Translations under genes and position numbers: made by a program
Source: an uncultured virus (IMG/VR IMGVR_UViG_3300002839_000259)
Lineage: Duplodnaviria > Heunggongvirae > Uroviricota > Caudoviricetes
IMG/VR virus record: IMGVR_UViG_3300002839_000259
Reading direction: 5' to 3' (one strand)
Length of the DNA: 64,000 nucleotides
Notes under the pieces: model-generated
Told to the model about the DNA's origin: nothing
Seen by the model: only the letters and a program-made list of their open reading frames with translations
Database searches by the model: none
In this document: positions 3,851 through 63,647 of the stretch, piece after piece
Layout of the letters: each line of letters opens with the position of its first letter
Numbering within the stretch: position 1 is the first letter of the stretch

Positions 3851-3872
3851 GTGTTGTCACCAACACCGGGGA
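3851..3872 (+). promoter_or_regulatory. Hairpin-CG motif (GTGTTG family)
   Basis: GTGTTG-TCAC-CAACAC-CGGGGA, ~55 nt before the RnlB-like gene. Confidence 0.7.
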
Positions 3873-3926
3873 GATATGTGAAACACAAGTATTTGTGTAA
3901 AAAACTAAAAAACGAGGTATTGTGAA

Positions 3927-4319
3927 ATGACTTTAGAAATAGATATTAGAGCAAAAAACTACGAAATCAACGTGCTTGATCAGGATGACTACGCAGCCAT
4001 TGTTTTTTCGACATCCTGTGCAAAACCATCGTTAAACTTAGACGAATTAAATAAAGACTTAACAAGGCTCGATATCAAAAATAAGAAAATTATTTTTGAT
4101 ATGATGATTGATATGGGAAACACGGCCGAGCGATTCACAGAAGCAGTATTCAACGGCGAACACCTGGTTCCCGCAACTTTTGCCTTTGCAAAAATTGATA
4201 AGAAAAGCCCGTTGCGTCAATGTTCTGCCGACTTCTTCATGAAAAATCCATCAATGTTAGAATATTCCGTCCTAACATCCGTTCAGCAAAAATTAATCAA
4301 CAAAGGTATTGCAATCTAA
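3927..4319 (+). CDS. RnlB/LsoB-family antitoxin-like protein (no adjacent toxin)
   Basis: 130 aa; AIVFSTS..P...ELNKDL...IIFDMM..G...RF...LEYSVLT parallels E. coli RnlB as I recall it (AVVMATG..P..EIE..L..ILFDLL..G..RF..LEASVLS). Confidence 0.7.
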   Translation: MTLEIDIRAKNYEINVLDQDDYAAIVFSTSCAKPSLNLDELNKDLTRLDIKNKKIIFDMMIDMGNTAERFTEAVFNGEHLVPATFAFAKIDKKSPLRQCSADFFMKNPSMLEYSVLTSVQQKLINKGIAI

Positions 4320-4350
4320 CCAAAAAATAAATAAAAAAGGACGTGTAACT

Positions 4351-4779
4351 ATGCAAAACAAAGAAATTCTCTCGTTTCACGGCGATCACCACTTTTTGTC
4401 AAACTTTCATTCTTGCCAGACAATATACAAAGGTGTGACGTTCCAGAACAGTGAGGCGGCTTTTCAGGCTCAAAAAGAGCCTGCTCGGGCTCATGAATTT
4501 GCAAATTTGGAACCAGGAGCTTCTAAGAAGTTAGGTTTTAAAGTCAAACTGATCCCAAATTGGGATAAACTAAAAGATCAAGTCATGTACGACGTTGTGA
4601 AAGCTAAGTTTTCACAAAATCCGGATTTACTGACACAATTACTGGCTACCGGTGATGTGCATTTGGAAGAAGGCAATACCTGGCGTGACAGATACTGGGG
4701 TACGGTTAATCGATGTGGTCAAAATAAACTCGGTTGCATTTTGATGCGACTGCGCGCAGAACAAAAAAATCTAATATGA
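4351..4779 (+). CDS. NADAR (YbiA-like) family protein
   Basis: FLSNF...SEAAFQAQK...KFSQN..L...LLATG...LEEGN..DRYWG....GQNKLG.ILM motifs; ATG 4351 with AAAGG upstream. Confidence 0.92.
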   Translation: MQNKEILSFHGDHHFLSNFHSCQTIYKGVTFQNSEAAFQAQKEPARAHEFANLEPGASKKLGFKVKLIPNWDKLKDQVMYDVVKAKFSQNPDLLTQLLATGDVHLEEGNTWRDRYWGTVNRCGQNKLGCILMRLRAEQKNLI

Positions 4780-4833
4780 TTAAAGTCACGGCGTAAATGC
4801 CGTGACAAAGCTATAATCAAAAGTTAAAAGCAA

Positions 4834-4855
4834 GTGTTGCGCGCAACACCGGGTA
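4834..4855 (+). promoter_or_regulatory. Hairpin-CG motif (GTGTTG family)
   Basis: GTGTTG-CGCG-CAACAC-CGGGTA upstream of ssb. Confidence 0.7.
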
Positions 4856-5024
4856 AACAATTGAAGCATGATCAATAGGAGAAAAAAGGTCTGTGCTAAA
4901 ACCGAGACAAAGCAAAACCAAAAGCAGATAACAATGGTGTTATCTCGAATGGTCAATTGAAACAATATCAAAACCAGTAAAAAAAATTAAAATAAACTAA
5001 AATAAAAAAGGATGGTATTAAAAG

Positions 5025-5510
5025 ATGAGCAACTTAAGAAATATGTATTTATTCGAGGGCCGTTTGGCCAAAGCACCTATTTTCCTTGACAACAAAGATG
5101 GTTCAAAGAAAGTATTGTTGACGATTGCTATTCAAAACGACTTCAAGAACAAGAAAACAGGCGACAAAGACAGCCAATTCATTCCATTCCAGGGCTTTAT
5201 CGCAGCTGGAAAAGGCAAGGGAGTGTACGATTTCATCGAAAAAGGGTCTTTAATCGGCGGTGCTGCTGAACTACGCAATAACAACTACGACGCAGCTGAC
5301 GGTACTAAAGTATATGGTATTGTTAACGTTATTCAAAAAATTGATTTGAAAGAATCTAAGTCAACAACTGATGCACGTCACGCAAACACTGGTGTAACAA
5401 CTGCGCCACAAGCGCCTATTGGATCCGAAGAACCAATGACTGACGAACAGGCCGCTGCAAACCTTGAATCAATCATGGCAATGGAAATGAACGACGTACC
5501 ATTCGCTTAA
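5025..5510 (+). CDS. ssb: Single-stranded DNA-binding protein
   Basis: OB-fold pattern (GRLAKAP...KGSLI...LRNNNY...G) and acidic tail ending DVPFA. Confidence 0.9.
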   Translation: MSNLRNMYLFEGRLAKAPIFLDNKDGSKKVLLTIAIQNDFKNKKTGDKDSQFIPFQGFIAAGKGKGVYDFIEKGSLIGGAAELRNNNYDAADGTKVYGIVNVIQKIDLKESKSTTDARHANTGVTTAPQAPIGSEEPMTDEQAAANLESIMAMEMNDVPFA

Positions 5511-5519
5511 GCGAAATAC

Positions 5520-7874: not shown

Positions 7875-8744
7875 ATGCGATACATTAAAATTAATGACAT
7901 CCGACCCAATATGTTATCGGCCTCAAATCTGTATGATCGCAATCATCAACCCGTCATGCGCGCCAATTGCCGACTGACACATGAACTGATTGCCGAGCTC
8001 ACCCAGTATGATTACAACGGTTTATATATTTATCAAAACCGTGACAAAATAGCCGACATGAAAAATAAATTACAACCTGAATATCCAACAAACATGTGTC
8101 AGGCCGTTTATCTGGCTAATACACTAATCAATCACGTCATGGGCGACATTCAAGTCAGCAAACACCTGATCAGCATGACCAACAGGGAACCCACTCATAT
8201 TGACCACTATATAGAGGTTGCATTAATATCGGTCTTGATTGGTATTAGTCGAGGATTAATCATCAACCAACTGACTGAACTAACGCAAGCTGCAATACTT
8301 CACGATCTGGGAAAAATTATGATTGACAAAGACATTCTTAATAAACCCGAAAAACTAACCCCAATCGAATATACCTACGTAAAAAACCATACCGAATTTG
8401 GTCATCAATTAATTATGAGCGATGACAATGCCGCCAATTGGAGTGTTGCCAATGCTGTGAGGCATCATCACGAAAATCATGACGGTAGTGGTTACCCTAT
8501 GGGACTTAAATGCAATCAAATTCCTGTATATGCACAAATTATTCATATTGCAGACGTCTATCAGGCTATGTTGTCAAATAGAGTGTATAAGAAGTCAATG
8601 GCACCGGACGAGGCTATGATTTACATGATGCAACAAATTGGCATCATGTTTGATCCAACCATGATATATCACTTTGTAAAACAGATCATCCACTATCCGA
8701 TTGAGGCCACTGTTATTTATCCTGGGATTACCAAAACAGCCTGA
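7875..8744 (+). CDS. HD-GYP domain phosphodiesterase
   Basis: LHDLGK...KPEKLT..E...H...G...HHHENHDGSGYP.GL...I..IADVY.A....R.YK. Confidence 0.9.
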   Translation: MRYIKINDIRPNMLSASNLYDRNHQPVMRANCRLTHELIAELTQYDYNGLYIYQNRDKIADMKNKLQPEYPTNMCQAVYLANTLINHVMGDIQVSKHLISMTNREPTHIDHYIEVALISVLIGISRGLIINQLTELTQAAILHDLGKIMIDKDILNKPEKLTPIEYTYVKNHTEFGHQLIMSDDNAANWSVANAVRHHHENHDGSGYPMGLKCNQIPVYAQIIHIADVYQAMLSNRVYKKSMAPDEAMIYMMQQIGIMFDPTMIYHFVKQIIHYPIEATVIYPGITKTA

Positions 8745-8764
8745 CAGCAGCCGCTGTCCGAGTA
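8743..8764 (+). promoter_or_regulatory. Hairpin-CG motif (GACAGC family)
   Basis: GACAGC-AGCC-GCTGTC-CGAGTA. Confidence 0.7.
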
Positions 8765-8822
8765 AAACATTGGACTTAAAATCTTTTAAAGTTATGGATT
8801 TCAACCGGGTGGCCGAAAATGC

Positions 8823-8844
8823 GACAGCGTTCGCTGTCCGGGTG
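8823..8844 (+). promoter_or_regulatory. Hairpin-CG motif (GACAGC family)
   Basis: GACAGC-GTTC-GCTGTC-CGGGTG heading ncRNA copy 1. Confidence 0.75.
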
Positions 8845-9132
8845 AAGATCAGACGAGAGATCCCTGTGGTGTTGCAGAGCCAACCACTTGATACTTAATT
8901 AACCGCATCTTTCGCAAAAACATAAGTCTCCTCCGACTTTATTCCACTCAAAAAAAATACTCGGTTCTGCTTTTATTTATTTGTCGAGAATATAGTACTG
9001 GTGTTTGCCTCCTCCTAATGTTTTCACCAGGCAGGTTCGATCCCTGCAATCGGCAAAATACGGACACAATTTTACCTCACTTTTTTCTCAAGAAACAACC
9101 TCGCTGCTTTATGCCGAGGTTGTTTTTTTTTT
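8845..9132 (+). ncRNA. Putative structured sRNA, copy 1 (anti-SD loops plus tRNA-like T-arm domain)
   Basis: No credible ORF; paralog at 16402-16677; AAGTC-TCCTCC-GACTT hairpin; GCAGG-TTCGATC-CCTGC T-arm; ends in terminator 9093-9132. Confidence 0.7.
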
Positions 9133-9197
9133 AGGTGAAAATTTTGATCAACTAATAATATAACAGTCGCAGGACTAAAAACTAAGGAGATATAAAA

Positions 9198-15990: not shown

Positions 15991-15991
15991 A

Positions 15992-16379: not shown

Positions 16380-16401
16380 GACAGCGTTCGCTGTCCGGGT
16401 G
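16380..16401 (+). promoter_or_regulatory. Hairpin-CG motif (GACAGC family)
   Basis: GACAGC-GTTC-GCTGTC-CGGGTG, ~17 nt after terminator 16326-16362. Confidence 0.75.
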
Positions 16402-16677
16402 AAGCTTGGACGAGAGATCCCTGTGGTGTTGCAGAGCCAACCACTTGATACTTAATTAACCGCATCTTTCGCAAAAACATAAGTCTCCTCCGACTTTATA
16501 CACTCAAAAAAATAAGGTTCTGCTTTTACTTACCTGTTGAAATATGGTACAGATGTTTAATCTCCTGAACACCTGACGGGTTCGAGTCCTGTAATCGACA
16601 AAAACATACTTCTATCTCCCATCCTTTTACCTAAAAAAAAAACAATCTAGCGATTATCGCCAAGGTTGTTTTTTTTT
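16402..16677 (+). ncRNA. Putative structured sRNA, copy 2
   Basis: Near-identical to copy 1 over ~120 nt, then compensatory divergence in the tRNA-like domain (ACGGG-TTCGAGT-CCTGT); terminator 16641-16677. Confidence 0.7.
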
Positions 16678-16695
16678 AATTGCTTGTGAACACGA

Positions 16696-16716
16696 GCAAT
16701 CCGTGATTGCCGATGG
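16696..16716 (+). promoter_or_regulatory. Hairpin-CG motif (GCAATC family)
   Basis: GCAATC-CGT-GATTGC-CGATGG between a terminator and fic. Confidence 0.8.
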
Positions 16717-16762
16717 TATAATAGATTATTGAAAAAATAAATAATAACAGAAAGGTGATAAA

Positions 16763-25594: not shown

Positions 25595-25615
25595 GCAATC
25601 GATGATTGCCGATAG
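25595..25615 (+). promoter_or_regulatory. Hairpin-CG motif (GCAATC family)
   Basis: GCAATC-GAT-GATTGC-CGATAG before the Panacea gene. Confidence 0.8.
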
Positions 25616-25669
25616 TTTATTTGATAATCAACTTTGAAAAAATATAAAATCGAAAGTGAGAAAATAAAA

Positions 25670-26488: not shown

Positions 26489-26509
26489 GCAATCTCCGAT
26501 TGCCGATGG
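26489..26509 (+). promoter_or_regulatory. Hairpin-CG motif (GCAATC family)
   Basis: GCAATC-TCC-GATTGC-CGATGG. Confidence 0.8.
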
Positions 26510-26554
26510 TGGATTTAGAAATCATGAAAATAAAAATAACGAAAGTGAGATAAG

Positions 26555-31895: not shown

Positions 31896-31915
31896 GCAAT
31901 CACGATTGCCGGTGG
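31896..31915 (+). promoter_or_regulatory. Hairpin-CG motif (GCAATC family)
   Basis: GCAATC-AC-GATTGC-CGGTGG. Confidence 0.8.
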
Positions 31916-31955
31916 ATTATTTGATATTTAAATTATTAAAAATGGAGGTGCAGAA

Positions 31956-36284: not shown

Positions 36285-36305
36285 GCAATCATCGATTGCC
36301 GATAG
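36285..36305 (+). promoter_or_regulatory. Hairpin-CG motif (GCAATC family)
   Basis: GCAATC-ATC-GATTGC-CGATAG. Confidence 0.8.
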
Positions 36306-36349
36306 CTGTTTTAGAAAAAATAAATTAGAAAAATTTGGGGGAAAAAATA

Positions 36350-37602: not shown

Positions 37603-37624
37603 GATAACATGCGTTATCCGGGGA
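37603..37624 (+). promoter_or_regulatory. Hairpin-CG motif (GATAAC family)
   Basis: GATAAC-ATGC-GTTATC-CGGGGA immediately after a terminator U-tract. Confidence 0.7.
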
Positions 37625-37663
37625 TAGTTTGAGAAAAAATAAGTGAAAAAGGGAGAACAGATT

Positions 37664-38932: not shown

Positions 38933-38953
38933 GCAATCGCCGATTGCCGGTAG
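38933..38953 (+). promoter_or_regulatory. Hairpin-CG motif (GCAATC family)
   Basis: GCAATC-GCC-GATTGC-CGGTAG, ~6 nt after a terminator. Confidence 0.8.
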
Positions 38954-39242
38954 AACAATTGATAAGAAAGTAAAAAAGCATGAAAGTATGTCTGTACATA
39001 TTTACAAAAATATTAAAATAAAAACATGAAAGCGAGACTAAAACGATGAATGATTCCCAGATAAAAGAGGCAATGGCAGAACGTGATAACACTATGTGCG
39101 CGCAATACAATGCTGAATTATTCAATAATTTTAGCAGCACGATAAATGACGACAATGCAAATGAAGACCAGTGGTGTTAAAATAAATATTAACACCGATA
39201 TCTAACGAAGCTATATTCAGAGCTTCGTTATTTTTTTTAAAC

Positions 39243-47004: not shown

Positions 47005-47025
47005 GCAATCGCAGATTGCCGGTGG
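47005..47025 (+). promoter_or_regulatory. Hairpin-CG motif (GCAATC family)
   Basis: GCAATC-GCA-GATTGC-CGGTGG after a terminator. Confidence 0.8.
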
Positions 47026-47313
47026 CGACTACAAACTATTAAAAAAGTGATGAGCCTATTCTTAGCGAAAGGATGTTTTCAAAATGAAACAATTCAAATT
47101 ATACAGCGATAACGGTAACTTACTGGCCTTTTTCATGAGTGACAATATAAACGAATCACGTGCCTATTTTAAGCAGTTGTTTCCAAAATTAACCAATGGT
47201 GTGATTATGTGCGTCAGCGACAACAATGCAAATGATTTTTGATCAAAATTGACTGATATAACAGCAATAAATACAAAAACATGATATAATATATCTAAGA
47301 AAGTGGTGTCACA

Positions 47314-48954: not shown

Positions 48955-48977
48955 GCAATCACTGTGATTGCCGAGTG
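48955..48977 (+). promoter_or_regulatory. Hairpin-CG motif (GCAATC family)
   Basis: GCAATC-ACTGT-GATTGC-CGAGTG. Confidence 0.75.
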
Positions 48978-49230
48978 TGTTAGATGAGATACCAAACGAC
49001 TATTAATGATAAACGTTGATATCTCATCATTATTTAAAAAATTAAACAATGCAATGACGCTAAAGATATGTCGCTGGTGCTTGAAAAAATGATAAGCGAC
49101 AGCGATTACACCTGGTGCGATGAAGAAAATCGATACGAATGCAACGTAGACGGATACGCATGTCAATCGTGTATATGTGTCAAACTTCTTGCAGAACATC
49201 ATTAGAAATTAATAGAAAGAAGGTCAAAAA

Positions 49231-50027: not shown

Positions 50028-50048
50028 TTAAAAAACGAGGTGCCAATC

Positions 50049-51124: not shown

Positions 51125-51151
51125 AAATAAGATATCCAAAGGAGGATTGTT

Positions 51152-51592: not shown

Positions 51593-51637
51593 TATGGGCG
51601 TATTTGAGTAAAAATAGAAAGTGAGGTGTAAAAGGCC

Positions 51638-52507: not shown

Positions 52508-52586
52508 GATTAAAAGAACGTGAAATTATTATGCGAAAAACGTTGTTGTAACTCGGTGTGATAAGAATAGAAAGAGAGATTTAAAA

Positions 52587-53063
52587 ATGGAATGCTGTTT
52601 AAAAAAAACGACGGACGACAAAACCTTAATCGGAGAGAAAAAATACTGTCATCATCAGAAAACGTGCTGCGACAAATGCCGATATAAGACCTGCCGTGAA
52701 AAATGCAGTCTGTTTCGCGAAGCAAAATCATGTGCGGATTGCAAATTTGCCGTTAAATCAAAGATTAAAGTCACAAAAGACTATCCGTTTAATCTAGCCG
52801 AACAGATTTTTGAAAATGATACAGACGCGTTAACGATTGATATACAAAACATCCTGATACTTCTTGACAACCTGACCAAACGTGAGCAAACCATCATTAA
52901 ACTTCGCTATATTGAGAAAAAAACCTATCGCGAAATAGGCAACATGCTTGATCTCAGCATCACATGTGTTCAATACAATCACACAAAAGCTCTACGAAAA
53001 CTCAAAAACCCGGCGCGGGCAAAATCAATCAGTAATTATCTTGGCGAATACACCATCAAATAA
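52587..53063 (+). CDS. Cys-rich N-terminus plus sigma-70 region 4 HTH protein
   Basis: LTKREQTIIKLRY...TYREIG.ML.LS...V.....KALRKLK. Confidence 0.8.
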   Translation: MECCLKKTTDDKTLIGEKKYCHHQKTCCDKCRYKTCREKCSLFREAKSCADCKFAVKSKIKVTKDYPFNLAEQIFENDTDALTIDIQNILILLDNLTKREQTIIKLRYIEKKTYREIGNMLDLSITCVQYNHTKALRKLKNPARAKSISNYLGEYTIK

Positions 53064-53081
53064 GAAAGTGAGAAACTATAA

Positions 53082-54814: not shown

Positions 54815-54850
54815 TCAGTCATCAAAAAATAACAGAAAGCGAGTTTCAAA

Positions 54851-55039
54851 ATGGAAAAATATATTATATATTTGATTTTGATGGTTGTTGTTTTTATTGC
54901 GACATCATTGCTGTTAAAAATGACAGAAAAAGACACATCGTATAATTATAGAGAAGGTTATCTCAAACTAATAAGAAAGGTGTCAATCATCGGGTTTGTG
55001 ATCATTGCCACATCATACGCCTATGTCATATTCAAATAA
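54851..55039 (+). CDS. Small two-TM protein
   Basis: AGAAAGCGAG RBS, hydrophobic. Confidence 0.6.
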   Translation: MEKYIIYLILMVVVFIATSLLLKMTEKDTSYNYREGYLKLIRKVSIIGFVIIATSYAYVIFK

Positions 55040-55140
55040 ATTGAAAAGTGCGTGCAAAAAATGGAAATATATTTTTATGTTCTAGTTCTGTTAAAATAAT
55101 AAAAAAATGCGATCATAAGCAAAAAGAAAGGTGAAAAATC

Positions 55141-55377
55141 ATGCCAAAAAATCCGATCATCAAACCCACCACGTTCTGCGAAATCTGCCGCGATGAAGTT
55201 GCTTATACCAAAAGCAACATCATGTTAAAACAAAATCTAAAAGGTATTATATGTGAATATCCCGGAAAAAAAGCCATTTGCAATCAATGCCAGGCTGAAG
55301 TTTGGATTCCGGCCATTCACGACAGCAATCTTGAATCGCTAATCAATGTCTATCAAAACAGACACACCAACGACTAG
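55141..55377 (+). CDS. MqsA/YgiT-type zinc-finger domain protein (no HTH, no toxin)
   Basis: FCEIC...LKG...EY.G..AIC.QC..EVW...IHD.NL..L...Y. Confidence 0.6.
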   Translation: MPKNPIIKPTTFCEICRDEVAYTKSNIMLKQNLKGIICEYPGKKAICNQCQAEVWIPAIHDSNLESLINVYQNRHTND

Positions 55378-55503
55378 CGAAACCGATGTAAAAAGCAATA
55401 ACGTTCCATATTGAGCCAAACGCTGACATGCAAGAATTGCTTAAATCAAATGCTGTACGAAAAATAAAGACATGGATGTAACTGAATAGCTTTGCCAGAA
55501 ATA

Positions 55504-55637
55504 TTGACATAGCGTGGACAAGCCTGTATAATAACAACATAAAGGCGCGACCGATAAGCGGTCAGACCTGAAAACCAGTGGTTTCTATAGTGAAAAACGC
55601 TAACCTCACACGCAACATCGGGGTTGGCGTTTTTTAT
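55504..55637 (+). ncRNA. Sigma-A-driven small RNA (promoter plus ~95 nt plus terminator)
   Basis: TTGACA-17-TATAAT at 55504-55532; GACCG-ATAAG-CGGTC hairpin; terminator AACGCTAACCTC...GGGGTTGGCGTTTTTT. Confidence 0.6.
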
Positions 55638-55682
55638 TTGCATTATTTTGTCAATTGATGATAAAATTAAAATAAAAATTGG

Positions 55683-55988
55683 GTGGCAATTAATTGCCAA
55701 CGCCCGGAAAAGAGATTAACCGTGGATCAGACCATAACATTAACAGCAACAACAGAAAGTCAAAAAAATGCACTACGAATAGCTGAACGGGACAACGAAA
55801 AGATAGCCTACGTGATCAAAGAAGCTCTGAGCAACTGGTATGCCTACAATAAGGATCGGTTAAACATTAATGATGCAAAAAACATGGATGTCATGCAATT
55901 AACCCTTCGGGTTGATGAGGAAACCTGGAATCTTTATAAGCTGTACATATCCGACACCATTGACCGATTACTTAATGATCTCAATTGA
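55683..55988 (+). CDS. Possible RHH-like DNA-binding protein (start uncertain)
   Basis: Two strand-helix-helix-like segments (TITLT..., QLTLRVDEETW...). Confidence 0.45.
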   Translation: MAINCQRPEKRLTVDQTITLTATTESQKNALRIAERDNEKIAYVIKEALSNWYAYNKDRLNINDAKNMDVMQLTLRVDEETWNLYKLYISDTIDRLLNDLN

Positions 55989-56087
55989 CACTTCTGTTTT
56001 TTGTGGAATTGATATAAATAAACTTTTGCCTTGCTTCAAAAAATGTGTATAATAGTGAATAAATTAGAACGGAAAGGTTGAATTAAA

Positions 56088-57044
56088 ATGATAGAAGATA
56101 ACACGATCGCCTCCTGGGAGAAAAAAATTACAAATGATTACGCACTTTTGGAACCTCGTCGCCGTGAAATAAACATGAAAATCAGTAGCGCCGTCATTGG
56201 TCTTAGTGCCGGAAGTGCTTTGGTTCAACTCTTTTCACGCAATGCAACAATCCACAAATTTTCACTTTTGATAGCCTGTGGATTGTTCATCATTGCCGTC
56301 ATTAATCTTTGCATTATCTATTCACGAAAAAAAAATATACATTTACAAATGTTTTACGACGACATGGTAAAAGAAGCAAAATTCTCAGATATTAATGCCA
56401 TCATAGACAGCTATTTTCCATTTATGATCAATTGCGCTACAACAATGAAACGCGAGGACACACTACTTTGGTCAAACATGATTTGTTCGTATTTTCAAGA
56501 AAAGAAGATCACACTGAGTCACAATGACTTTTGTAATATTCTTGGGATAATCATCTGTGATCCAATCGTTAATGACGCATTAAAAGAGCTCTATCCAAAT
56601 CCGATATATCCAATCAACATTAATTATGGGCGTGATGGAAATGCTCTGAGAAAATTGCGAAGTAATTATCCGGACAATACCAACATCATTCGTTGGCCAC
56701 AGTTCTACGGGTGGTCATCAGCAAAGTACGCGTGCACAACGATCACCAAGTTACGTAGCCAAGCTGTATATGACAGACTCGATGGAATGAGTGTACCCGA
56801 GCGTGTTTCAAATCCTAATTATGTATTGGATTCACAATTTCTTTTACCGTCCCTAAAAAGAATGCGACGTCTTTCAAAAGAAGAAGTTGTCTATTATTCG
56901 GCAACAGTAAGAGTTCGTGAGATCATAAGTGATTATATTAGTCAAATAAAAACCCCACAACCATGCATATATCCTGTGACTGGCACAAATCGATATGCAA
57001 GCCTTGCAAGTAATGACGCGTTGTTAAAATGTGCAAATAACTAA
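56088..57044 (+). CDS. Two-TM hypothetical protein
   Basis: 318 aa; upstream TGTGTATAAT and GAAAGG RBS. Confidence 0.7.
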   Translation: MIEDNTIASWEKKITNDYALLEPRRREINMKISSAVIGLSAGSALVQLFSRNATIHKFSLLIACGLFIIAVINLCIIYSRKKNIHLQMFYDDMVKEAKFSDINAIIDSYFPFMINCATTMKREDTLLWSNMICSYFQEKKITLSHNDFCNILGIIICDPIVNDALKELYPNPIYPININYGRDGNALRKLRSNYPDNTNIIRWPQFYGWSSAKYACTTITKLRSQAVYDRLDGMSVPERVSNPNYVLDSQFLLPSLKRMRRLSKEEVVYYSATVRVREIISDYISQIKTPQPCIYPVTGTNRYASLASNDALLKCANN

Positions 57045-57158: not shown

Positions 57159-57179
57159 GCAATCTCCGATTGCCGGTAA
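57159..57179 (+). promoter_or_regulatory. Hairpin-CG motif (GCAATC family)
   Basis: GCAATC-TCC-GATTGC-CGGTAA after a terminator. Confidence 0.8.
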
Positions 57180-57362
57180 AACAATTGAAAAATAAGTTCT
57201 AAAAATAATAAAACAAAATATAAGAAAGTTGGGAAAAATTATAGCAAATTCTGAAGCACAATACCCCAAAAATATGACCGAAACCGAAATTGAAGCAGCT
57301 TTGGTTGAATTATTGCGCAGATATGAAAGAGCTGTTCTCCGACAGGTATAGCGGTAAAATGA

Positions 57363-57383
57363 GCAATCACGGATTGCCGAAAG
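57363..57383 (+). promoter_or_regulatory. Hairpin-CG motif (GCAATC family)
   Basis: GCAATC-ACG-GATTGC-CGAAAG. Confidence 0.75.
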
Positions 57384-57557
57384 TGTCTTAAAAGTAGTAA
57401 CAAAAAAGATCATGCGTTTTGTTAGGGTGTGTTCATCCCCTGTGGCGCTGTAACCAAAATGTGATTGAGACGGAACGTTATTATAATGGTCCGTCTTTTT
57501 CCGTAAATTAAATCAAAATTAAATCAAAAATAAATAAAAATATGAGGAGCATCAAAA

Positions 57558-58123: not shown

Positions 58124-58144
58124 GCAATCTTCGATTGCCGATGG
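58124..58144 (+). promoter_or_regulatory. Hairpin-CG motif (GCAATC family)
   Basis: GCAATC-TTC-GATTGC-CGATGG, ~8 nt after terminator 58074-58115. Confidence 0.8.
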
Positions 58145-58209
58145 TCCACTGGTTAATTAAAACCTAAAACAAAAAAAATTAATAAATTAAAATAAAGAAG
58201 GTGAGAAAA

Positions 58210-59150: not shown

Positions 59151-59477
59151 ATGATGTTAACACATATTGAGCAAAATCCAGACATTCAAGCAGCTGCCAA
59201 AGCGACTAAAACAGTTATCATTTGTGGAGGCTGTCAAGGACACACCATCAGTGCAATGATTGTTAAAAAAATAAACGATACAACAGACAACGAGCCAAGT
59301 TTGGCACTTGTTGAACCACCGAAATTAATCAATGTAAACTACTTAACATCTTTCGATTTTGGAGACAACATGTGTGAAGAACCTAACTACATACAGAGAA
59401 AACCGTTCAAAAAAACAATGACTCACGCAGCTAAAAAAGCTCAAAGTAAAAAAATAAAGAGACAGAAAGCAAAATAA
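59151..59477 (+). CDS. Hypothetical protein
   Basis: 108 aa, coupled to nrdD. Confidence 0.55.
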   Translation: MMLTHIEQNPDIQAAAKATKTVIICGGCQGHTISAMIVKKINDTTDNEPSLALVEPPKLINVNYLTSFDFGDNMCEEPNYIQRKPFKKTMTHAAKKAQSKKIKRQKAK

Positions 59478-61786
59478 TGAAAAATCAAATTTCTAAACGC
59501 AATGGCCAGACCGTTGCCTTCGACAAACAAAAAATATTCAATGCAATTCGTAAAGCAAACACACACGTTACCGATGAAAACATCCATGACATTCAAAGTT
59601 TGACAGATCGTGTTGTTGCCAAATTGGATCCCAATAAAGTGCCATCGGTCGAAGCAATCCAGGACATGGTTGAAGAAGTCTTAATTCAAGCAAATTATGC
59701 CAAGACCGCCAAAGCCTATATTTTATATCGAGCACAACACTCGAAAGCTCGCCAGACTCAAAGCAACCTGATGGATGTCTACAAAGAGCTGACATTCAAA
59801 AGCGCCAAAGATGCCGATCTCAAACGGGAGAACGCGAATATCGACGCCGACACGCCTATGGGCACAATGCTAAAATACGGCTCAGAAAGCTCCAAATATT
59901 TTATCAACAACTATGTATTACCTGACGATATGGCAACAGCCCATACCAACGGTGACATCCATATTCACGATTTAGACTTTTACGCATTAACCGAAACTTG
60001 TTGCCAAATTGACCTACTAAAATTATTTAAAGACGGATTTCAAACCGGTCACGGTTCAATACGTGAACCAAAATCAATAAATGTCTATGCTGCACTCGCT
60101 TGCATCGCCATACAATCAAATCAGAACGAAATGCACGGCGGGCAGGGAATTCCTAACTTTGATTATGCAATGGCACCAGGCGTTGCGAAAACATTTAGAA
60201 AGTTTTATTTCAAAGCGTTGGGTGAGTATCTCAAAATTCGATTTAATATGAAAAGTAACGTTGTTCAAGACATTGTGTCTCAATTAAAAATACAACCAAT
60301 TCAACCGAAAATCAGTGACTCGGATCAATATTTATCAACATTAAAAACGGTATTGGATGAGTTTATACCCGGTAATACCGTCGACACACACCAATATGCC
60401 GAAGATACGGCATTTGATGAAACTAATGTCGCAACAATGCAAAGTATGGAGAGTTTGATTCATAATCTAAACACCATGCATTCCAGGGCCGGCGCCCAGG
60501 TGCCGTTTTCATCAATCAACTACGGAACTGACACGTCATCTGAAGGCCGCATGGTCATCAAGAATTTATTGTTGGCAACGATCCGAGGTATGGGCAACGG
60601 TGAAACGCCGATCTTCCCTGTTCAGATTTTCAAAGTCAAAGACGGTGTCAATTATGAACCAGGTGATCCAAACTACGATTTATTTAAACTGGCCATTAAG
60701 ACCAGTGCTAAACGATTATTCCCGAATTTTAGTTTCTTAGATGCACCATTTAATTTGCAATATTATAAAGACGGTGACTATGATACCGAAGTAGCCTACA
60801 TGGGTTGCCGCACCAGGGTCATGGGTAATACCTATGATAAAACCAGGGAAACCACCAATGGCCGTGGCAACTTAAGTTTCACCTCGATCAACTTACCGAG
60901 AATTGCCATCGAAGCCAACAAAGACATTGATAAATTATATGAACTGCTGGATCAGCGTATTGAGCTGGTCATCGCGCAATTGTTGCATCGCTACGGCATC
61001 CAGAGCAGCAAGACCGTTAAAAATTATCCGTTCCTGATGGGCCAAGGTGTCTGGATTGATTCCGATAAGTTAAAACCCAATGATACCGTTGCCGAAATTT
61101 TAAAACATGGCTCACTCAGTGTCGGCTTTATTGGACTGGCTGAAGCCCTGACAGCTCTAACAGGTAATCATCACGGCGAAAATACTGAGAGTCAAGCTCT
61201 GGGTCTCGCTATAATTGGACACATGCGGGAAAAAATGGATGAAGCATCTGAACACTATCAAATGAATTTCACATTACTTGCTACTCCAGCAGAAGGTCTT
61301 AGTGGTCGCTTTGTAAAAATGGATCAAGCCAAATATGGTGTAATTCATGGTGTTACTGACAAAGACTATTATACAAACAGTTTTCACGTGCCGGTTGGCT
61401 ATCAGCTCTCGGCACATAAGAAGATCAAGACTGAAGCACCATATCACAATTTGACGAATGCTGGACACATAAGCTACGTTGAATTCGACGGTGATATGGC
61501 CTCAAATCTGGAAGCCTACGAAAAAGTCGTCCGCGCTATGAAAGAAAGTGGCATCGGATATGGATCAGTGAATCACCCTGTTGACAGGGACCCAATTTGC
61601 GGATATAACGGCATTATCGGTAACGAATGTCCACAGTGCCATCGTATCGAAGATGACGAAAATCAAGGCTTCGAACGCATCAGACGCATCACTGGCTACT
61701 TAGTTGGAACAGTTGATCGCTGGAATGATGCCAAACGGGCTGAAGAAAAGGATCGTGTTAAACATGGAGTTGCAACTCAGAATTAA
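59477..61786 (+). CDS. nrdD: Anaerobic (class III) ribonucleoside-triphosphate reductase
   Basis: ATP-cone, HIHDLDFY, TCCQ, MGCR, YYTNSFHV, RRITGYL glycyl-radical motif. Confidence 0.96.
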   Translation: MKNQISKRNGQTVAFDKQKIFNAIRKANTHVTDENIHDIQSLTDRVVAKLDPNKVPSVEAIQDMVEEVLIQANYAKTAKAYILYRAQHSKARQTQSNLMDVYKELTFKSAKDADLKRENANIDADTPMGTMLKYGSESSKYFINNYVLPDDMATAHTNGDIHIHDLDFYALTETCCQIDLLKLFKDGFQTGHGSIREPKSINVYAALACIAIQSNQNEMHGGQGIPNFDYAMAPGVAKTFRKFYFKALGEYLKIRFNMKSNVVQDIVSQLKIQPIQPKISDSDQYLSTLKTVLDEFIPGNTVDTHQYAEDTAFDETNVATMQSMESLIHNLNTMHSRAGAQVPFSSINYGTDTSSEGRMVIKNLLLATIRGMGNGETPIFPVQIFKVKDGVNYEPGDPNYDLFKLAIKTSAKRLFPNFSFLDAPFNLQYYKDGDYDTEVAYMGCRTRVMGNTYDKTRETTNGRGNLSFTSINLPRIAIEANKDIDKLYELLDQRIELVIAQLLHRYGIQSSKTVKNYPFLMGQGVWIDSDKLKPNDTVAEILKHGSLSVGFIGLAEALTALTGNHHGENTESQALGLAIIGHMREKMDEASEHYQMNFTLLATPAEGLSGRFVKMDQAKYGVIHGVTDKDYYTNSFHVPVGYQLSAHKKIKTEAPYHNLTNAGHISYVEFDGDMASNLEAYEKVVRAMKESGIGYGSVNHPVDRDPICGYNGIIGNECPQCHRIEDDENQGFERIRRITGYLVGTVDRWNDAKRAEEKDRVKHGVATQN

Positions 61787-62237
61787 TGATGTAATTCCCG
61801 AATCAATTGTTGATGGACCAGGCATCCGCTATGTGATTTTCACGCAGGGATGCCCTCATCACTGCCCTCACTGTCATAACCCGCAGACACATGATTTTGC
61901 GGGTGGGTGCCTGAAAGACATTAACGATCTGTATGACGAGATCATTGAGAATCCGTTACTGCAAGGTGTTACGTTTAGTGGCGGCGAGCCGTTCTTGCAG
62001 CCAAAACCACTAACGATTCTGGCCAAAAAATTAAAACAAAACGGTCTTGATGTTGTGACCTATACTGGCTTTATTTATGAAAGTCTCAAACACATTGGCA
62101 CCGATGAGTTAGACTTATTGGCCGTCACCGATGTTCTCATCGACGGTGCATTTGACTATAATAAGCGCGATGCTTCGCTAAAATTCAGAGGCAGCGCCAA
62201 TCAGCGAATAATTGATCTACATCACGGTTTGCAATAA
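61764..62237 (+). CDS. nrdG: Anaerobic RNR activating radical-SAM enzyme
   Basis: SIVDGPGIR..IFTQGCPHHCPHCHNP, SGGEP, FRGSANQR. Confidence 0.95.
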   Translation: MELQLRINDVIPESIVDGPGIRYVIFTQGCPHHCPHCHNPQTHDFAGGCLKDINDLYDEIIENPLLQGVTFSGGEPFLQPKPLTILAKKLKQNGLDVVTYTGFIYESLKHIGTDELDLLAVTDVLIDGAFDYNKRDASLKFRGSANQRIIDLHHGLQ

Positions 62238-62274
62238 TCGAAAAATAATCAAATTAAGAAAGTGTGGTGAAGAC

Positions 62275-62583
62275 GTGGTTATATTGGATTTTCTACCAAA
62301 AGAAGACGAGACGACGGGTGTGTCTTACCGACTAACGTATGACTGTAAATATTATCATATTGAAAAGCACATCCTTAGCTTTCTCGTTTCGAAAAAGCGA
62401 CTGTCTAAAAAAGCTGTCAATGAACAACTGGGCATTGATCTGACCAAAAAAGCACAAAAATGGAACATCAACACCACACGTTATTGCGAAGAAATAATAG
62501 CATATGATATTGAAACCGCACGAAAAATAGCAAGTTATCGACACGGAGTTAGGTCCGTCGATGAAATCAGTTTAATTGAATAA
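62275..62583 (+). CDS. Hypothetical protein (start uncertain)
   Basis: ORF after AGAAAGTG RBS. Confidence 0.5.
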   Translation: MVILDFLPKEDETTGVSYRLTYDCKYYHIEKHILSFLVSKKRLSKKAVNEQLGIDLTKKAQKWNINTTRYCEEIIAYDIETARKIASYRHGVRSVDEISLIE

Positions 62584-62811
62584 AAGAAAGCAAGAAAAAA
62601 TGGAAAACGATGCAAGTCTACGCACGAATGCTATATTAACGCCGTTGGTACAATTTGTAAGACTTAATCTAAATAATTTCACAGGCCGGAGTGTTGGTCA
62701 GAAAAAGTGTGAAACTTTTTCGAGAGAAGAATAAGAGCCTGAAATGCGGAGTGTTATTTCCAACATTTCAGGCTGATTAATAAAAAATATATAACTAAGG
62801 AGAAATAAAAA

Positions 62812-63198
62812 ATGGCAAATTATTACTGCGGTTGCGAACCGTTGAAGAATACTAAGATGAAAGATGCCAAAGCACATCTCATTCTGATTCAGCAATTAAA
62901 AGAACACGAATTACTCAACTGGTTGTTCAACGAAGACAGTCTGAGCACCGAAGGTGAGGTTAACGACGTCGTTTTGATCGAACAGGAAATGATTGATATC
63001 TCACTTAAACTAAAAGACATCTTGATCTGGGTTGACATTTATGCAAGTAATATCGAAATCTGGCGTGACTATTATTTAAACGGCCAAACCCAAATGGTCG
63101 AAGCAACGCTGCCTAATATCAGTTTTCCGGATCCCTCATGGACACCGATTTTGGACGATGTTAAATGGGACGCATCACTTTTACAACAAGTATGTTAG
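62812..63198 (+). CDS. Hypothetical protein, distant paralog of the 30117 N-domain
   Basis: IWRDYYLNGQTQ...ISFPD vs FQRHYFKDGQTN...IAYPE. Confidence 0.65.
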   Translation: MANYYCGCEPLKNTKMKDAKAHLILIQQLKEHELLNWLFNEDSLSTEGEVNDVVLIEQEMIDISLKLKDILIWVDIYASNIEIWRDYYLNGQTQMVEATLPNISFPDPSWTPILDDVKWDASLLQQVC

Positions 63199-63215
63199 TG
63201 AAAAAGAGTGTCGCA

Positions 63216-63461
63216 ATGACATTTGGTAAATTAATTTATGAAAAAAGAATGGCTCAAGGCGTGTCGGCTAACCAGTTGACCAAAACGATGCAGATGCCTA
63301 TGGACTGTTTGATCCACATTGAAAATAGTGACGGTTATATCATCGACAAAGCGGATCTCGACGGTTTTATTGCACGTCTTAGCTTGGATGCAGCAAAAGT
63401 CAATACCGTCGTTAAATCGCTTAATTGCGACAAAATTTTGATATGTGGTATGATTGTATGA
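63216..63461 (+). CDS. XRE-like helix-turn-helix protein
   Basis: TFGKLIYEKRMAQGVS..QL........L.HIEN. Confidence 0.6.
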   Translation: MTFGKLIYEKRMAQGVSANQLTKTMQMPMDCLIHIENSDGYIIDKADLDGFIARLSLDAAKVNTVVKSLNCDKILICGMIV

Positions 63462-63626
63462 GATCAGAAAATCTTTGCCAAATTGCGGATGCTTTAATCA
63501 AAAATTTGATATTAAACATATGCTCGAGCCAATCGAAATATCAATCGAACCGTTTGTATTAATCGTATAGCAAAAATCAAGCATGGCCACAACGGTTGTG
63601 CTCTTTTTTTGCTATACGAAATAAGT

Positions 63627-63647
63627 GCAATCATCGATTGCCGATGG
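63627..63647 (+). promoter_or_regulatory. Hairpin-CG motif (GCAATC family)
   Basis: GCAATC-ATC-GATTGC-CGATGG after a terminator, before dcd. Confidence 0.8.

What the first reader, a model, noticed from the sequence alone, without database searches (positions are those of the whole stretch)
3851..63647. Dispersed, co-oriented hairpin+CG motif heading transcription units (19 copies, 4 covarying stem families): candidate structure-specific promoter or cassette-junction system
SEEN: G-N5-loop(2-5 nt)-N5-C followed by an invariant CG(A/G). GCAATC/GATTGC occurs at 16696, 25595, 26489, 31896, 36285, 38933, 39243, 47005, 48955, 57159, 57363, 58124 and 63627; GACAGC/GCTGTC at 8743, 8823 and 16380; GTGTTG/CAACAC at 3851 and 4834; GATAAC/GTTATC at 37603. 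Every copy I found is essentially intergenic and in the same orientation. Most lie a few to ~30 nt after an intrinsic terminator and ~40-100 nt before a + strand start codon or an ncRNA. Stem sequence and loop length vary while pairing and the 3' CG are kept, which argues for recognition of a folded single strand rather than a dimeric repressor site. KNOWN: coliphage N4 virion RNA polymerase uses 5-7-bp, 3-nt-loop DNA hairpin promoters with SSB and starts a few nt past the stem. HUH enzymes (IS608 TnpA, REP-associated TnpA) read a tetranucleotide at the foot of a hairpin. INFERENCE: this is either an element-specific hairpin/ssDNA promoter for early, sigma-A-independent expression (genes behind it include ssb, RnlB/NADAR, Panacea, Fic, RtcB and dcd), or a recombination/processing site delimiting gene cassettes. 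No cognate polymerase or recombinase is visible in the window.
Basis: partly seen in the sequence, partly recalled or inferred. Interest (0 to 1): 0.95.

Follow-up and report, generated by a model that had tools for sequence, protein, structure and literature searches.

The report
Hairpin-marked start signals of a giant mobile element
A 228-kb uncultured phage- or plasmid-like element from peat puts the same small DNA hairpin plus a short fixed tail in front of dozens of its gene units, which most likely marks an unusual, shape-read kind of promoter whose reading enzyme is still unknown.

Summary
A perfect 6-bp hairpin (G...C) followed by CGR occurs 22 times on the + strand of the window and 0 times on the - strand; shuffles give 0.52 for both strands. 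The window is part of a 228-kb metagenome contig. About 110 kb of it is readable and holds 35 sites, all on +, all between credible genes, with 8 different stem sequences and no wobble pair. A scan for the linear tail alone finds the hairpin again in 13 of 23 + matches and 0 of 7 - matches. A second conserved box, TTGATAAG, lies 11 nt after the stem. Nothing upstream is conserved. Ribosome-binding sites begin as close as about 27 nt after the stem. The best reading (0.5) is an element-specific promoter whose upstream edge is a DNA hairpin, like coliphage N4 early promoters in principle. It is not a member of that family: the loops are free, and no polymerase is seen in the readable 110 kb. An RNA-level leader and an ssDNA enzyme site remain rivals. 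No relatives and no RNA data were found, so start sites and cassette exchange are untested.

The parts
3851..3885 (+). Motif copy: stem GTGTTG/CAACAC, loop TCAC, tail CGGGG. It heads RnlB (3927-4319) and NADAR (4309-4779).
   Evidence: 26.9 bits
4834..4868 (+). Motif copy: stem GTGTTG/CAACAC, loop CGCG, tail CGGGTAAACAATTGAAG. It lies upstream of the SSB gene (5025-5510).
8743..8777 (+). Motif copy: stem GACAGC/GCTGTC, loop AGCC, tail CGAGTAAAACATTGG. It is in tandem with the next copy, 80 nt downstream.
8823..8857 (+). Motif copy: stem GACAGC/GCTGTC, loop GTTC. It heads copy 1 of a duplicated non-coding unit of about 300 nt.
16380..16414 (+). Motif copy: stem GACAGC/GCTGTC, loop GTTC. It heads copy 2 of the duplicated non-coding unit. 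Homology between the two copies begins 3 nt before the hairpin.
16696..16729 (+). Motif copy: GCAATC-CGT-GATTGC, tail CGATGG. It heads the Fic gene (16763-17593).
25595..25628 (+). Motif copy: GCAATC-GAT-GATTGC, tail CGATAG...TTGATA. It heads the Panacea-domain gene and sits in the divergent gap beside the - strand RecD2-like gene.
26489..26522 (+). Motif copy: GCAATC-TCC-GATTGC, tail CGATGG...TTAGA. It heads three small genes (26555-27483).
31896..31928 (+). Motif copy: GCAATC-AC-GATTGC, tail CGGTGG...TTGATA. It heads a 57-aa ORF and RtcB (32163-33338). The ATG lies 46 nt after the stem.
36285..36318 (+). Motif copy: GCAATC-ATC-GATTGC, tail CGATAG...TTAGA. It heads 36335-36526 and the LRR protein gene (36623-37507).
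37603..37637 (+). Motif copy: stem GATAAC/GTTATC, loop ATGC, tail CGGGG...TTGAGA. A run of 12 T abuts the stem. The ATG lies 45 nt after the stem.
38933..38966 (+). Motif copy: GCAATC-GCC-GATTGC, tail CGGTAGAACAATTGATAAG. The terminator T-run ends 7 nt before the stem.
   Evidence: 46.6 bits
39243..39275 (+). Motif copy: GCAATC-GC-GATTGC, tail CGATGG...TTGAGA. It directly follows the terminator at 39203-39230 and its T-run.
47005..47038 (+). Motif copy: GCAATC-GCA-GATTGC, tail CGGTGG. It heads 47090-48924, which includes the DUF7768 gene.
48955..48990 (+). Motif copy: GCAATC-ACTGT-GATTGC, tail CGAGTG...TTAGAT. This is the weakest copy (23.9 bits). It heads the long unit 49231-57044, which includes the Ros/MucR, RDD, C5-methylase and sigma region-4-only genes.
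57159..57192 (+). Motif copy: GCAATC-TCC-GATTGC, tail CGGTAAAACAATTGAAA. This is the best-scoring copy (47 bits).
57363..57396 (+). Motif copy: GCAATC-ACG-GATTGC, tail CGAAAG. A GC-richer stretch without an ORF follows it.
58124..58157 (+). Motif copy: GCAATC-TTC-GATTGC, tail CGATGG. It heads the unit that holds NrdD (59477-61786) and NrdG. Its flanks (CCATCAAT...CGATGGTCC) resemble the Clostridiaceae-type repeat core.
63627..63660 (+). Motif copy: GCAATC-ATC-GATTGC, tail CGATGG. It heads the dCTP deaminase-like gene (from 63697).
52587..53063 (+). 158-aa protein in which only sigma-70 region 4 is detectable. It is a candidate reader of the -35-like TTGATAAG box; this is inference only.
5025..5510 (+). 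SSB-like gene, itself behind a motif copy. It matters only by analogy with the SSB dependence of N4 hairpin promoters.

Best explanation
The motif is the promoter, or at least its upstream half, of an expression class specific to this element. It serves most + strand units of a 228-kb phage- or plasmid-like replicon.

The signal is composite. It has a 6-bp hairpin-forming inverted repeat that starts with G and ends with C. The free loop is 2-5 nt. An unpaired C-G-R-N-R-G follows, and 11 nt after the stem there is a TTGATAAG box.

The stem sequence changes freely as long as Watson-Crick pairing is perfect, and loop length changes too. So the repeat is read as an extruded or single-stranded DNA hairpin, not as duplex half-sites.

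Transcription would start between the stem foot and about 24 nt after it. The purine-rich G-R-N-R-G right after the stem is a candidate start.

It could be a polymerase of the element in the unread half of the contig, or host RNA polymerase redirected by element proteins such as the two sigma region-4-only proteins.

Shown: the anatomy, strand and placement, the covariation, and the lack of any upstream signal.
For: 1. Strand and chance. Perfect sites number 22 on + and 0 on - in the window, against 0.52 in shuffles. In the readable 110 kb they number 37 and 0. The covariance model finds 35 sites, all on +, with a gap from 23.9 to 16.6 bits before the next hit.
2. Hairpin selection. There are 8 stem sequences, all 204 cells are Watson-Crick pairs, and 5 of 6 pairs change on both sides. 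Without selecting for pairing, the linear tail alone is preceded by a perfect hairpin in 13 of 23 + matches (6 different stems) and 0 of 7 - matches. One-mismatch stems are at background level.
3. Loop length of 2-5 nt moves the two arms relative to each other, which is incompatible with a fixed-spacing dimer site.
4. Unit-head placement. All sites lie between credible genes. T-runs lie within 50 nt upstream in 22 of 34 sites and abut the stem at 37603, 38933 and 39243. A Shine-Dalgarno sequence plus start codon lies 39-71 nt after the stem in 17 of 35 sites. Several sites head RNA-like units without an ORF.
5. Nothing upstream is conserved: at most 0.4 bit at each of 50 positions. The two copies of a duplicated non-coding unit share sequence only from 3 nt before the hairpin onward, although their upstream contexts differ. 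Whatever expresses them lies in the hairpin or after it.
6. The - strand genes (Alp, RecD2-like, Rep3, MCP) have no copy. At least one has a canonical TG-extended sigma-A-type promoter, at 25534-25506. This fits two expression classes.
7. There are no G.T pairs in any copy. The loop's last + strand base is C in 16 of 29 three- and four-nt loops (p = 2e-5), so loops on the template strand begin with G. This is a weak pointer to DNA and to the template strand, as in N4 (passages of PMC4496689).
Against: - No transcription start site and no RNA data exist.
- No RNA polymerase, primase or dedicated sigma with a region 2 was found in the 110 kb I could annotate.
- The hairpins are weak: mean -3.7 kcal/mol as DNA. 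They also lack the conserved loop that makes N4 hairpins extrude.
- The 34 sites used for the pair counts were chosen for perfect pairing, so '100% paired' is partly by construction.
- The same hairpin-plus-CCGR core occurs in multi-copy intergenic repeats of several Clostridia genomes, in both orientations. These are not obviously promoters, so the core may serve another, host-level function.
- One site (L079:17382-17426) has CT instead of CG.
Confidence: 0.5

Rival explanations
1. RNA-level leader element. The hairpin plus CCGR plus UUGAUAAG is transcribed and works in the mRNA. It could be a 5'-terminal stabiliser, a processing site for an endoribonuclease, or a binding site for a translational regulator. 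Transcription would come from read-through or from unrecognised upstream promoters.
For: - Every stem starts with G, which would suit a 5'-terminal hairpin.
- The motif always lies in what would be the 5' leader, 39-71 nt before start codons.
- The element is rich in RNA-repair and anti-RNase genes: RtcB, two RnlB and a ProQ-like gene.
- The same core sits in 3'-UTR-like positions in Clostridia repeats.
Against: - T-runs of terminators abut or nearly abut the stem at several sites, and the 50 nt upstream carry no conserved signal.
- The duplicated non-coding unit shares nothing upstream of position -3.
- No G.U pair occurs in 204 cells or 8 stem types. That would be unusual for an RNA helix.
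Confidence: 0.22
2. Site for an enzyme that acts on single-stranded DNA. Candidates are an HUH nuclease or transposase (REP/RAYT- or IS200/IS605-like hairpin plus foot nucleotides), a cassette recombination site, or a primase/primosome loading signal on one strand.
For: - Hairpin plus a conserved foot sequence is the grammar of HUH enzymes.
- The tail often reads GTAG or GTGG.
- Strict single-strand orientation would follow from the direction of replication.
- The same core is part of REP-like multi-copy repeats in Clostridia MAGs, for example 15 pattern matches in G004.
- TnpB genes are present.
Against: - No Y1/HUH, relaxase or integrase domain was found in the 110 kb annotated.
- The one IS200-like gene checked in a repeat-rich host genome is not flanked by the hairpin.
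- The fixed downstream TTGATAAG box and the tight distance to ribosome-binding sites are not expected for such a site.
- Copies stand singly, not as paired ends.
- In the host repeat the hairpin is not kept in all copies. Of 13 aligned copies, 4 read GATTAC in the right arm, which breaks a pair, and 2 lack the hairpin.
Confidence: 0.15
3. Ordinary duplex operator or activator site (a palindrome bound by a dimeric regulator) placed upstream of a weak sigma-A-type core promoter.
For: The commonest form, GCAATC-N3-GATTGC, is a classical 15-bp palindrome. HTH, Ros/MucR and sigma region-4 proteins are encoded nearby.
Against: - Eight different palindromes would need eight regulators.
- The spacing between arms varies from 2 to 5 nt.
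- The tail is asymmetric.
- There is no -10 box at sigma-A distance from TTGATA, and the Shine-Dalgarno sequences lie where it would be.
Confidence: 0.05

Closest known systems
Early promoters of coliphage N4 read by the virion RNA polymerase (passages of PMC4496689)
   Same: - A short inverted repeat (5-7 bp in N4, 6 bp here) lies just upstream of the unit.
- Stem bases are free to vary if pairing is kept.
- An unpaired stretch lies between the stem foot and the presumed start.
- The signal is independent of -35/-10 boxes.
- An SSB gene is present in the element.
   Different: - N4 has three promoters with a conserved 3-nt purine loop and a GC-rich heptamer centred at -11.
- Here there are 35 or more copies, loops are 2-5 nt of any sequence, the tail is a conserved CCGR, and there is an extra TTGATAAG box.
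- No T7-like or N4-like polymerase is seen in the readable 110 kb.
- The host type is Firmicute-like rather than Gram-negative.
PeSL (promoter-early stem-loop) cassettes of T4-type phages (abstract of PMC2839356)
   Same: Small repeated regulatory modules lie between accessory genes, and a stem-loop lies next to a start signal. Such modules are possible homology for shuffling.
   Different: PeSLs join a strong sigma-70-like promoter to a terminator stem-loop. Here no sigma-70-type boxes fit, the hairpin has no T-run and is separate from the terminators, and its stem covaries.
Single-stranded DNA promoters (Frpo/ssi type) of conjugative plasmid leading regions (passages of PMC6294495; search listing of PMC11541004)
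   Same: Folded single strands act as promoters for co-oriented anti-defence and ssb genes early after entry.
   Different: By recall, those promoters are long folds that rebuild -35/-10 boxes. Here there is a 15-nt hairpin, and no relaxase or transfer genes are seen in the readable part.
REP/RAYT and IS200/IS605 end hairpins read by Y1 HUH transposases (recalled, not read here)
   Same: A hairpin with a few conserved nucleotides at its foot, strand specificity, and a multi-copy intergenic distribution. A look-alike core occurs in Clostridia repeat families.
   Different: No HUH gene was seen. The copies are single and co-oriented, stand at fixed distance before ribosome-binding sites, and carry a second linear box.
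Template-strand promoters of jumbo phage AR9 non-virion RNA polymerase (passages of PMC7598289)
   Same: Promoter recognition works on single-stranded DNA without sigma-70 boxes, in a large phage of a Firmicute host. Some tails here contain AACA.
   Different: The AR9 consensus A(-11)ACA-N6-U-A/G(+1) does not fit the spacing here. AR9 uses no hairpin. No split beta/beta' genes are seen in the readable part.

Membership tests
N4-type hairpin promoter | Inverted repeat forming a 5-7 bp stem directly upstream of the start | tested here: met
   35 sites have a perfect 6-bp stem.
N4-type hairpin promoter | Non-conserved stem bases may change if pairing is kept | tested here: met
   There are 8 stem sequences, and 5 of 6 pairs change on both sides. 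The tail-only scan finds 6 stem types without selecting for pairing.
N4-type hairpin promoter | Conserved 3-nt loop with specific purines (-11 A/G, -10 G) and a GC-rich heptamer centred at -11 | tested here: not met
   Loops are 2, 3, 4 or 5 nt (4, 20, 9 and 1 sites) with no fixed sequence. There is only a bias: the last + strand loop base is C in 16 of 29.
N4-type hairpin promoter | Start site at a fixed distance from the hairpin | not testable with these tools
N4-type hairpin promoter | Cognate T7-like (virion) RNA polymerase encoded by the element | tested here: inconclusive
   None was found among the ORFs of the readable 110 kb. Contig positions 1-111185, 200378-203513 and 223969-228044 could not be fetched.
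PeSL cassette | Strong sigma-70-like -35/-10 promoter in the module | tested here: not met
   No conserved upstream boxes exist. With TTGATA as the -35 box, the -10 box and the start would fall on or after the Shine-Dalgarno sequence or ATG.
PeSL cassette | The stem-loop is the terminator of the preceding gene | tested here: not met
   The hairpin is followed by CCGR, not by a T-run. Separate terminator T-runs lie upstream.
PeSL cassette | Gene gain and loss between relatives breaks at the modules | not testable with these tools
   No related replicon was found.
ssDNA (Frpo-type) plasmid promoter | Long folded single strand that rebuilds -35 and -10 boxes | tested here: not met
   The only conserved fold is a 15-17-nt hairpin without such boxes.
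REP/RAYT or IS200/IS605 end | Hairpin with conserved foot nucleotides | tested here: met
   C-G-R follows the stem in 34 of 35 sites.
REP/RAYT or IS200/IS605 end | Cognate Y1 HUH transposase gene | tested here: inconclusive
   There is no Y1_Tnp hit among the ORFs of the readable 110 kb. TnpB genes are present without TnpA. Half of the contig is unread.
REP/RAYT or IS200/IS605 end | Copies in both orientations or as paired ends | tested here: not met
   All 35 copies are on the + strand and stand singly.
Sigma-70-family two-box duplex promoter | -35 and -10 boxes 16-18 bp apart, upstream of the start | tested here: not met

The most novel reading that the evidence does not exclude
A replicon-wide class of shape-read promoters. 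Short DNA hairpins extruded from the duplex, with any stem sequence, a fixed C-G-R foot and a TTGATAAG box, drive 35 or more units of a 228-kb Firmicute-type phage or plasmid. The reading machinery is unrelated to N4 virion polymerase. It may be host polymerase re-targeted by sigma region-4-only proteins, or a host factor that also binds the same core in Clostridia repeat elements.
Probability: 0.3. Interest if true: 0.9.

Novelty: new variant of a known kind. Interest (0 to 1): 0.7.

Why it matters
Promoters read as DNA structure are known in essentially one system, the three early promoters of coliphage N4. A second, unrelated and far larger set would show that hairpin-dependent initiation is a general strategy of mobile elements. 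This set has 35 or more sites, free loops, eight stem types and an added linear box, and it comes from an uncultured Firmicute-type giant element.

It would also give a clean natural series of compensatory variants for biochemistry, and an orthogonal promoter grammar for Gram-positive engineering.

If instead the motif is an RNA or ssDNA-enzyme site shared with Clostridia repeat families, it points to an undescribed host factor.

Tried and rejected
- Relatives by DNA. Megablast of 20 kb against phage and plasmid collections found no match. blastn of one 61-nt site against phages found only chance matches in coding DNA.
- Relatives by motif.
  - IMG/VR with GCAATCNNNGATTGCCGRT gave 32 single matches and no multi-copy contig.
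  - IMG/VR with the linear tail gave 86 single matches, 0 preceded by a perfect hairpin.
  - Metagenome contigs: only the window's own contig has several matches.
  - Species genomes gave 98 stretches.
- Relatives by protein. The SbcCD-like fusion has none in IMG/VR, and the closest in plasmids is 39% identical, in the C. kluyveri phage-plasmid pCKL555A. That record showed fewer than 3 motif-type sites per half-record locus (L033, L034) in my scan. The sigma4-alphaCTD protein finds only itself.
- Covariance model over 88 genomes of the class of G002: 7 weak single matches in 6 genomes and no cluster.
- Whole genome or whole contig: not held.
- RNA evidence. No RNA holder is listed; 4 DNA runs hold the stretch.
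- Rfam. Nothing at gathering level in the window. Nothing convincing for the duplicated non-coding unit or the Clostridia repeats.
- Sigma-54, ECF, sigma-28 and AR9-type readings were compared by eye with recalled consensus sequences. All were rejected on spacing.
- RAYT link. The IS200-like gene of one repeat-rich genome is not flanked by the hairpin.
- Literature. Searches for hairpin promoters in phages, ssDNA promoters, and jumbo-phage promoters with stem-loops, and for four 12-nt strings of the motif, found no description of this signal. The string hits were primers in unrelated papers.

Full report
**What the window is**

The window matches positions 111,186-175,185 of a 228,044-bp metagenome contig. 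The spacing of eight motif matches is identical, and the overlapping loci are letter-for-letter the same. Loci fetched let me read contig positions 111,186-200,377 and 203,514-223,968, about 110 kb. The rest could not be fetched.

G+C is 39.6%.

Genes on the + strand include:
- RnlB, NADAR, SSB, an HD hydrolase, a 1239-aa SbcCD-like fusion, Fic, TnpB (two in the window) and a GmrSD-N protein;
- Panacea, RtcB, BspA-type LRR proteins, a metallo-beta-lactamase-fold protein, Ros/MucR, RDD and a C5 methylase;
- NrdD, NrdG and dCTP deaminase.

Further along the contig there are an HTH repressor-like protein, nucleotide kinases, second RnlB and Panacea genes, and a Cas12a gene with an 11-repeat array.

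On the - strand lie an actin-like partition protein, a RecD2-like helicase, a Rep3 initiator, a chemotaxis receptor, and an ORF of more than 1179 aa with 16 Listeria-Bacteroides repeats.

No virion gene, RNA polymerase, relaxase, integrase or Y1/HUH enzyme was seen in this half. I therefore call it a phage- or plasmid-like giant element. Strong GGAGG-type ribosome-binding sites point to a Firmicute-type host. The nearest homologue of the SbcCD-like fusion among deposited plasmids is in a Clostridium kluyveri phage-plasmid, at 39% identity.

Yes. The 13 GCAATC/GATTGC copies are exact (shuffles gave 0.03).

| Test | + strand | - strand | Control |
|---|---|---|---|
| G-N5, loop 2-5, complement, C, CGR, in the window | 22 | 0 | 100 dinucleotide shuffles: mean 0.52 for both strands, maximum 4 |
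| Perfect stems in the readable 110 kb | 37 | 0 | - |
| Stems with one mismatch or wobble | 47 | 33 | background on both strands |

So real copies are essentially always perfect.

I set aside three perfect hairpins inside genes (25239, 34851, 45918) because they lack the downstream box. The other 34 were aligned.

A covariance model built from the 34 recovers them and finds one new site, L079:17382-17426. That makes 35 sites, all on +, at 23.9-47 bits. The next best hit scores 16.6 bits. The new site has a perfect GCAATC stem and the TTGATAAG box at the usual distance, but CT instead of CG after the stem.

**Hairpin or palindrome?**

The 34 sites use eight stem sequences:
- GCAATC 21
- GTGTTG 3
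- GACAGC 3
- GCAATT 2
- GCAAGC 2
- GATAAC 1
- GCACGC 1
- GCAGGC 1

Five of the six pairs change on both sides, the outer G-C never changes, and there is no G.T pair in 204 cells.

These sites were picked for perfect pairing, so I made an independent test. I scanned for the linear tail alone: CCGR, 7-9 nt, then TT[G/T]A[T/G/A]A. That gives 23 matches on + and 7 on -. Of the + matches, 13 are preceded by a perfect 6-bp hairpin of six different sequences. None of the 7 - matches is.

Loop length is 2, 3, 4 or 5 nt in 4, 20, 9 and 1 sites. A duplex site for a dimer cannot tolerate that, and eight palindromes would need eight regulators. The repeat is therefore selected to fold.

**Anatomy beyond the stem**

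Aligned on the stem foot, the information profile is as follows:
- C and G: 2.2 bits each
- R: 1.1 bits
- T at position 4: 0.7 bits
- G at position 6: 0.9 bits
- TTTGA at positions 11-15: 0.5-0.8 bits each

In full form the tail reads CGGTAGAACATTTGATAAGA.

Upstream of the stem, none of 50 positions exceeds 0.4 bit. The only recurring feature is a terminator T-run at variable distance. A run of 6 or more T lies within 50 nt in 22 of 34 sites (9 of the 19 in the window). It touches or nearly touches the stem at 37603, 38933 and 39243 (terminator at 39203-39230).

**Where can transcription start?**

With a strict rule (SD-like pentamer plus start codon plus an ORF of 35 codons or more), 19 of 35 sites have a start within 200 nt. 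Seventeen of these lie 39-71 nt after the stem, and the median is 58. Several of the 16 sites without a call have weaker SDs visible, or head units without an ORF.

In eight sites the ATG lies only 39-51 nt after the stem. The SD then starts about 27-37 nt after it.

If TTGATA (positions 12-17) were a sigma-A -35 box, the start would fall about 35 nt later. That is on or beyond the ATG and downstream of the SD, and no -10 box stands there. So the obvious sigma-A reading fails.

Any start must lie upstream of about position 25, and there is no signal upstream of the hairpin. The two copies of a duplicated non-coding unit of about 300 nt (8823 and 16380) are nearly identical from 3 nt before the hairpin onward. 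They are unrelated upstream. Whatever expresses them is contained in the hairpin and what follows.

The purine-rich G-R-N-R-G directly after the stem would suit an initiating sequence. This is inference.

**DNA or RNA?**

This cannot be decided. The following points favour DNA:
- No wobble pair occurs.
- Pairing is perfect, which a cruciform needs on both strands.
- T-runs abut the stem.
- The last + strand loop base is C in 16 of 29 three- and four-nt loops (p = 2e-5), so loops on the template strand begin with G. Five of 20 triloops are GNA on that strand, against one on the + strand.

N4 promoter hairpins are read on the template strand and have G-first purine loops (passages of PMC4496689).

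Against DNA: the hairpins are weak, with a mean of -3.7 kcal/mol as DNA and -4.9 as RNA.

**Who reads it?**

This is unknown. The readable half encodes no polymerase.

It does encode two proteins in which only a SigA/RpoD-like region 4 is detectable. One is a 158-aa protein in the window (52587-53063). The other is a 205-aa protein just beyond it, in which region 4 is fused to an alpha-subunit C-terminal domain (L079:11825-12442). Region 4 binds TTGACA-type boxes, so these are candidate readers of TTGATAAG. This is a lead, not a result.

The - strand genes have no motif. At least the RecD2-like gene has a TG-extended sigma-A-type promoter. That would fit a host-read class and an element-read class.

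**A complication found on the way**

The exact core GCAATC-N3-GATTGC-CGRTRG also occurs in species genomes: 98 stretches were returned. Most are single hits in GC-rich genomes, but several Clostridia MAGs hold many.

| Genome | Matches to GCAATC-N2-5-GATTGCCGR |
|---|---|
| G001 | 9 |
| G002 | 2 |
| G003 | 4 |
| G004 | 15 |
| G005 | 2 |

The reversed control pattern gave 0 matches in these genomes.

The matches belong to two unrelated repeat families:
- A Lachnospiraceae-type multi-hairpin unit of about 155 nt that ends in a terminator, with 64 BLAST matches in G004.
- A Clostridiaceae-type unit, once present as 4.2 tandem copies of 69 nt between convergent genes.

In the Clostridiaceae-type unit the tail GATGGG pairs with an upstream CCCATC. 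The phage site 58124 shares that flank: CCATCAAT, hairpin, CGATGGTCC.

These repeats occur in both orientations and lack TTGATAAG. In the Lachnospiraceae family the hairpin is not kept in every copy: of 13 aligned copies, 4 have a broken pair and 2 lack the hairpin.

Rfam has no family for them. The one IS200-like gene I checked is not flanked by them.

I cannot say whether the shared core reflects a common host factor, common descent or chance. It lowers my confidence that the hairpin plus CCGR is a purely element-specific promoter signal, and it keeps the RNA-level and ssDNA-enzyme rivals alive. The full motif is rare in Clostridia genomes: 7 weak matches in 88 genomes, against 35 in 110 kb here.

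**Comparison with known systems**

- In principle the motif works most like N4 early promoters. It fails the family's loop and heptamer criteria, and no cognate polymerase is seen, so I do not file it there.
- It is not a PeSL cassette. It has no sigma-70 boxes and the hairpin is not the terminator (abstract of PMC2839356).
- It is not a long folded ssDNA promoter of plasmid leading regions.
- It does not fit the AR9 template-strand consensus.
- It shares the 'hairpin plus foot nucleotides' grammar of HUH enzymes, but not their paired, two-orientation distribution.

**Verdict**

| Reading | Confidence |
|---|---|
| Hairpin-dependent promoter class of the element | 0.5 |
| RNA leader element | 0.22 |
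| ssDNA-enzyme or recombination site | 0.15 |
| Duplex operator | 0.05 |
| Other | the remainder |

The earlier notes of this scan that I saw concern PeSL-like cassettes in other genomes. They gave me that comparator only.

Noticed in passing
L082:11129-14881 and L082:15032-15712 (contig 191485-195237 and about 195388-196068): The same contig carries a 1250-aa Cas12a (Cpf1) gene followed by an array of 11 repeats ending in TCTACTGTTGTAGAT, with spacing of 61-64 nt. A motif copy (contig 191283) lies about 190 nt upstream of cas12a.
   Followed up: partly
L079:11825-12442 (contig 176636-177253) and window 52587-53063: Two small proteins have only a SigA-like region 4 detectable. In one, region 4 is fused to an RNA polymerase alpha C-terminal domain. 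A search of 5.8 billion proteins returned only the fusion protein itself.
   Followed up: partly
window 8839-9140 and 16396-16690: A non-coding unit of about 300 nt is duplicated. Each copy sits behind a GACAGC-type motif copy and ends in a terminator with compensatory changes. It holds a T-arm-like GGTTCGATCC segment. No convincing Rfam match was found.
   Followed up: partly
L057:19981-20052 (contig about 223494-223565): A tRNA-like stretch with D-arm-like and T-arm-like segments (judged by eye) begins 24 nt after a motif stem. ARAGORN does not call it.
   Followed up: partly
window 3-3539 (- strand): An ORF of more than 1179 aa runs off the window. It has 16 Listeria-Bacteroides repeat (Flg_new) domains, seen in the DNA as about 15 tandem 210-nt repeats. 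Two BspA-type LRR proteins are also encoded (36623-37507, 53723-54814).
   Followed up: partly
L348:1410-1695; L368:1425-1580 and many loci of G004, G001 and G003: Clostridia MAGs hold multi-copy intergenic repeat families that contain the identical GCAATC-N3-GATTGC-CCGR core. One is a 69-nt unit present as 4.2 tandem copies. Another is a 155-nt multi-hairpin unit with 64 BLAST matches in one genome. Neither is in Rfam.
   Followed up: partly
window 25239-25255, 34851-34866, 45918-45934: Three further perfect G...C hairpins followed by CGR lie on the + strand inside genes. Only about 0.26 per strand is expected by chance. The one at 25239 shares the tail CCGAGTAAAACA with the site at 8743 and lies antisense to the 5' part of the RecD2-like gene.
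   Followed up: partly
window 17978-19132, 44560-46149; L057:43-372: There are three TnpB-type genes (one a fragment) and no TnpA nearby. The hairpin at 19193, just after the first tnpB, has CGT rather than CGR and may belong to its guide RNA region.
   Followed up: no
window 25506-25534 (- strand): A TG-extended sigma-A-type promoter (TTGATT, 17 nt, TATAAT) stands before the - strand RecD2-like gene. The - strand genes (Alp, Rep3, MCP, RecD2-like) carry no motif copy.
   Followed up: partly
L057:9975-10000 and L057:10409-10434 (before sites 102329 and 102763): Unlike the other sites, these two copies share about 21 nt upstream of the hairpin (AAATCATRTATAATAGTATTT), including a TATAAT. This looks like a recent duplication that includes a sigma-A-like -10 box.
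   Followed up: no
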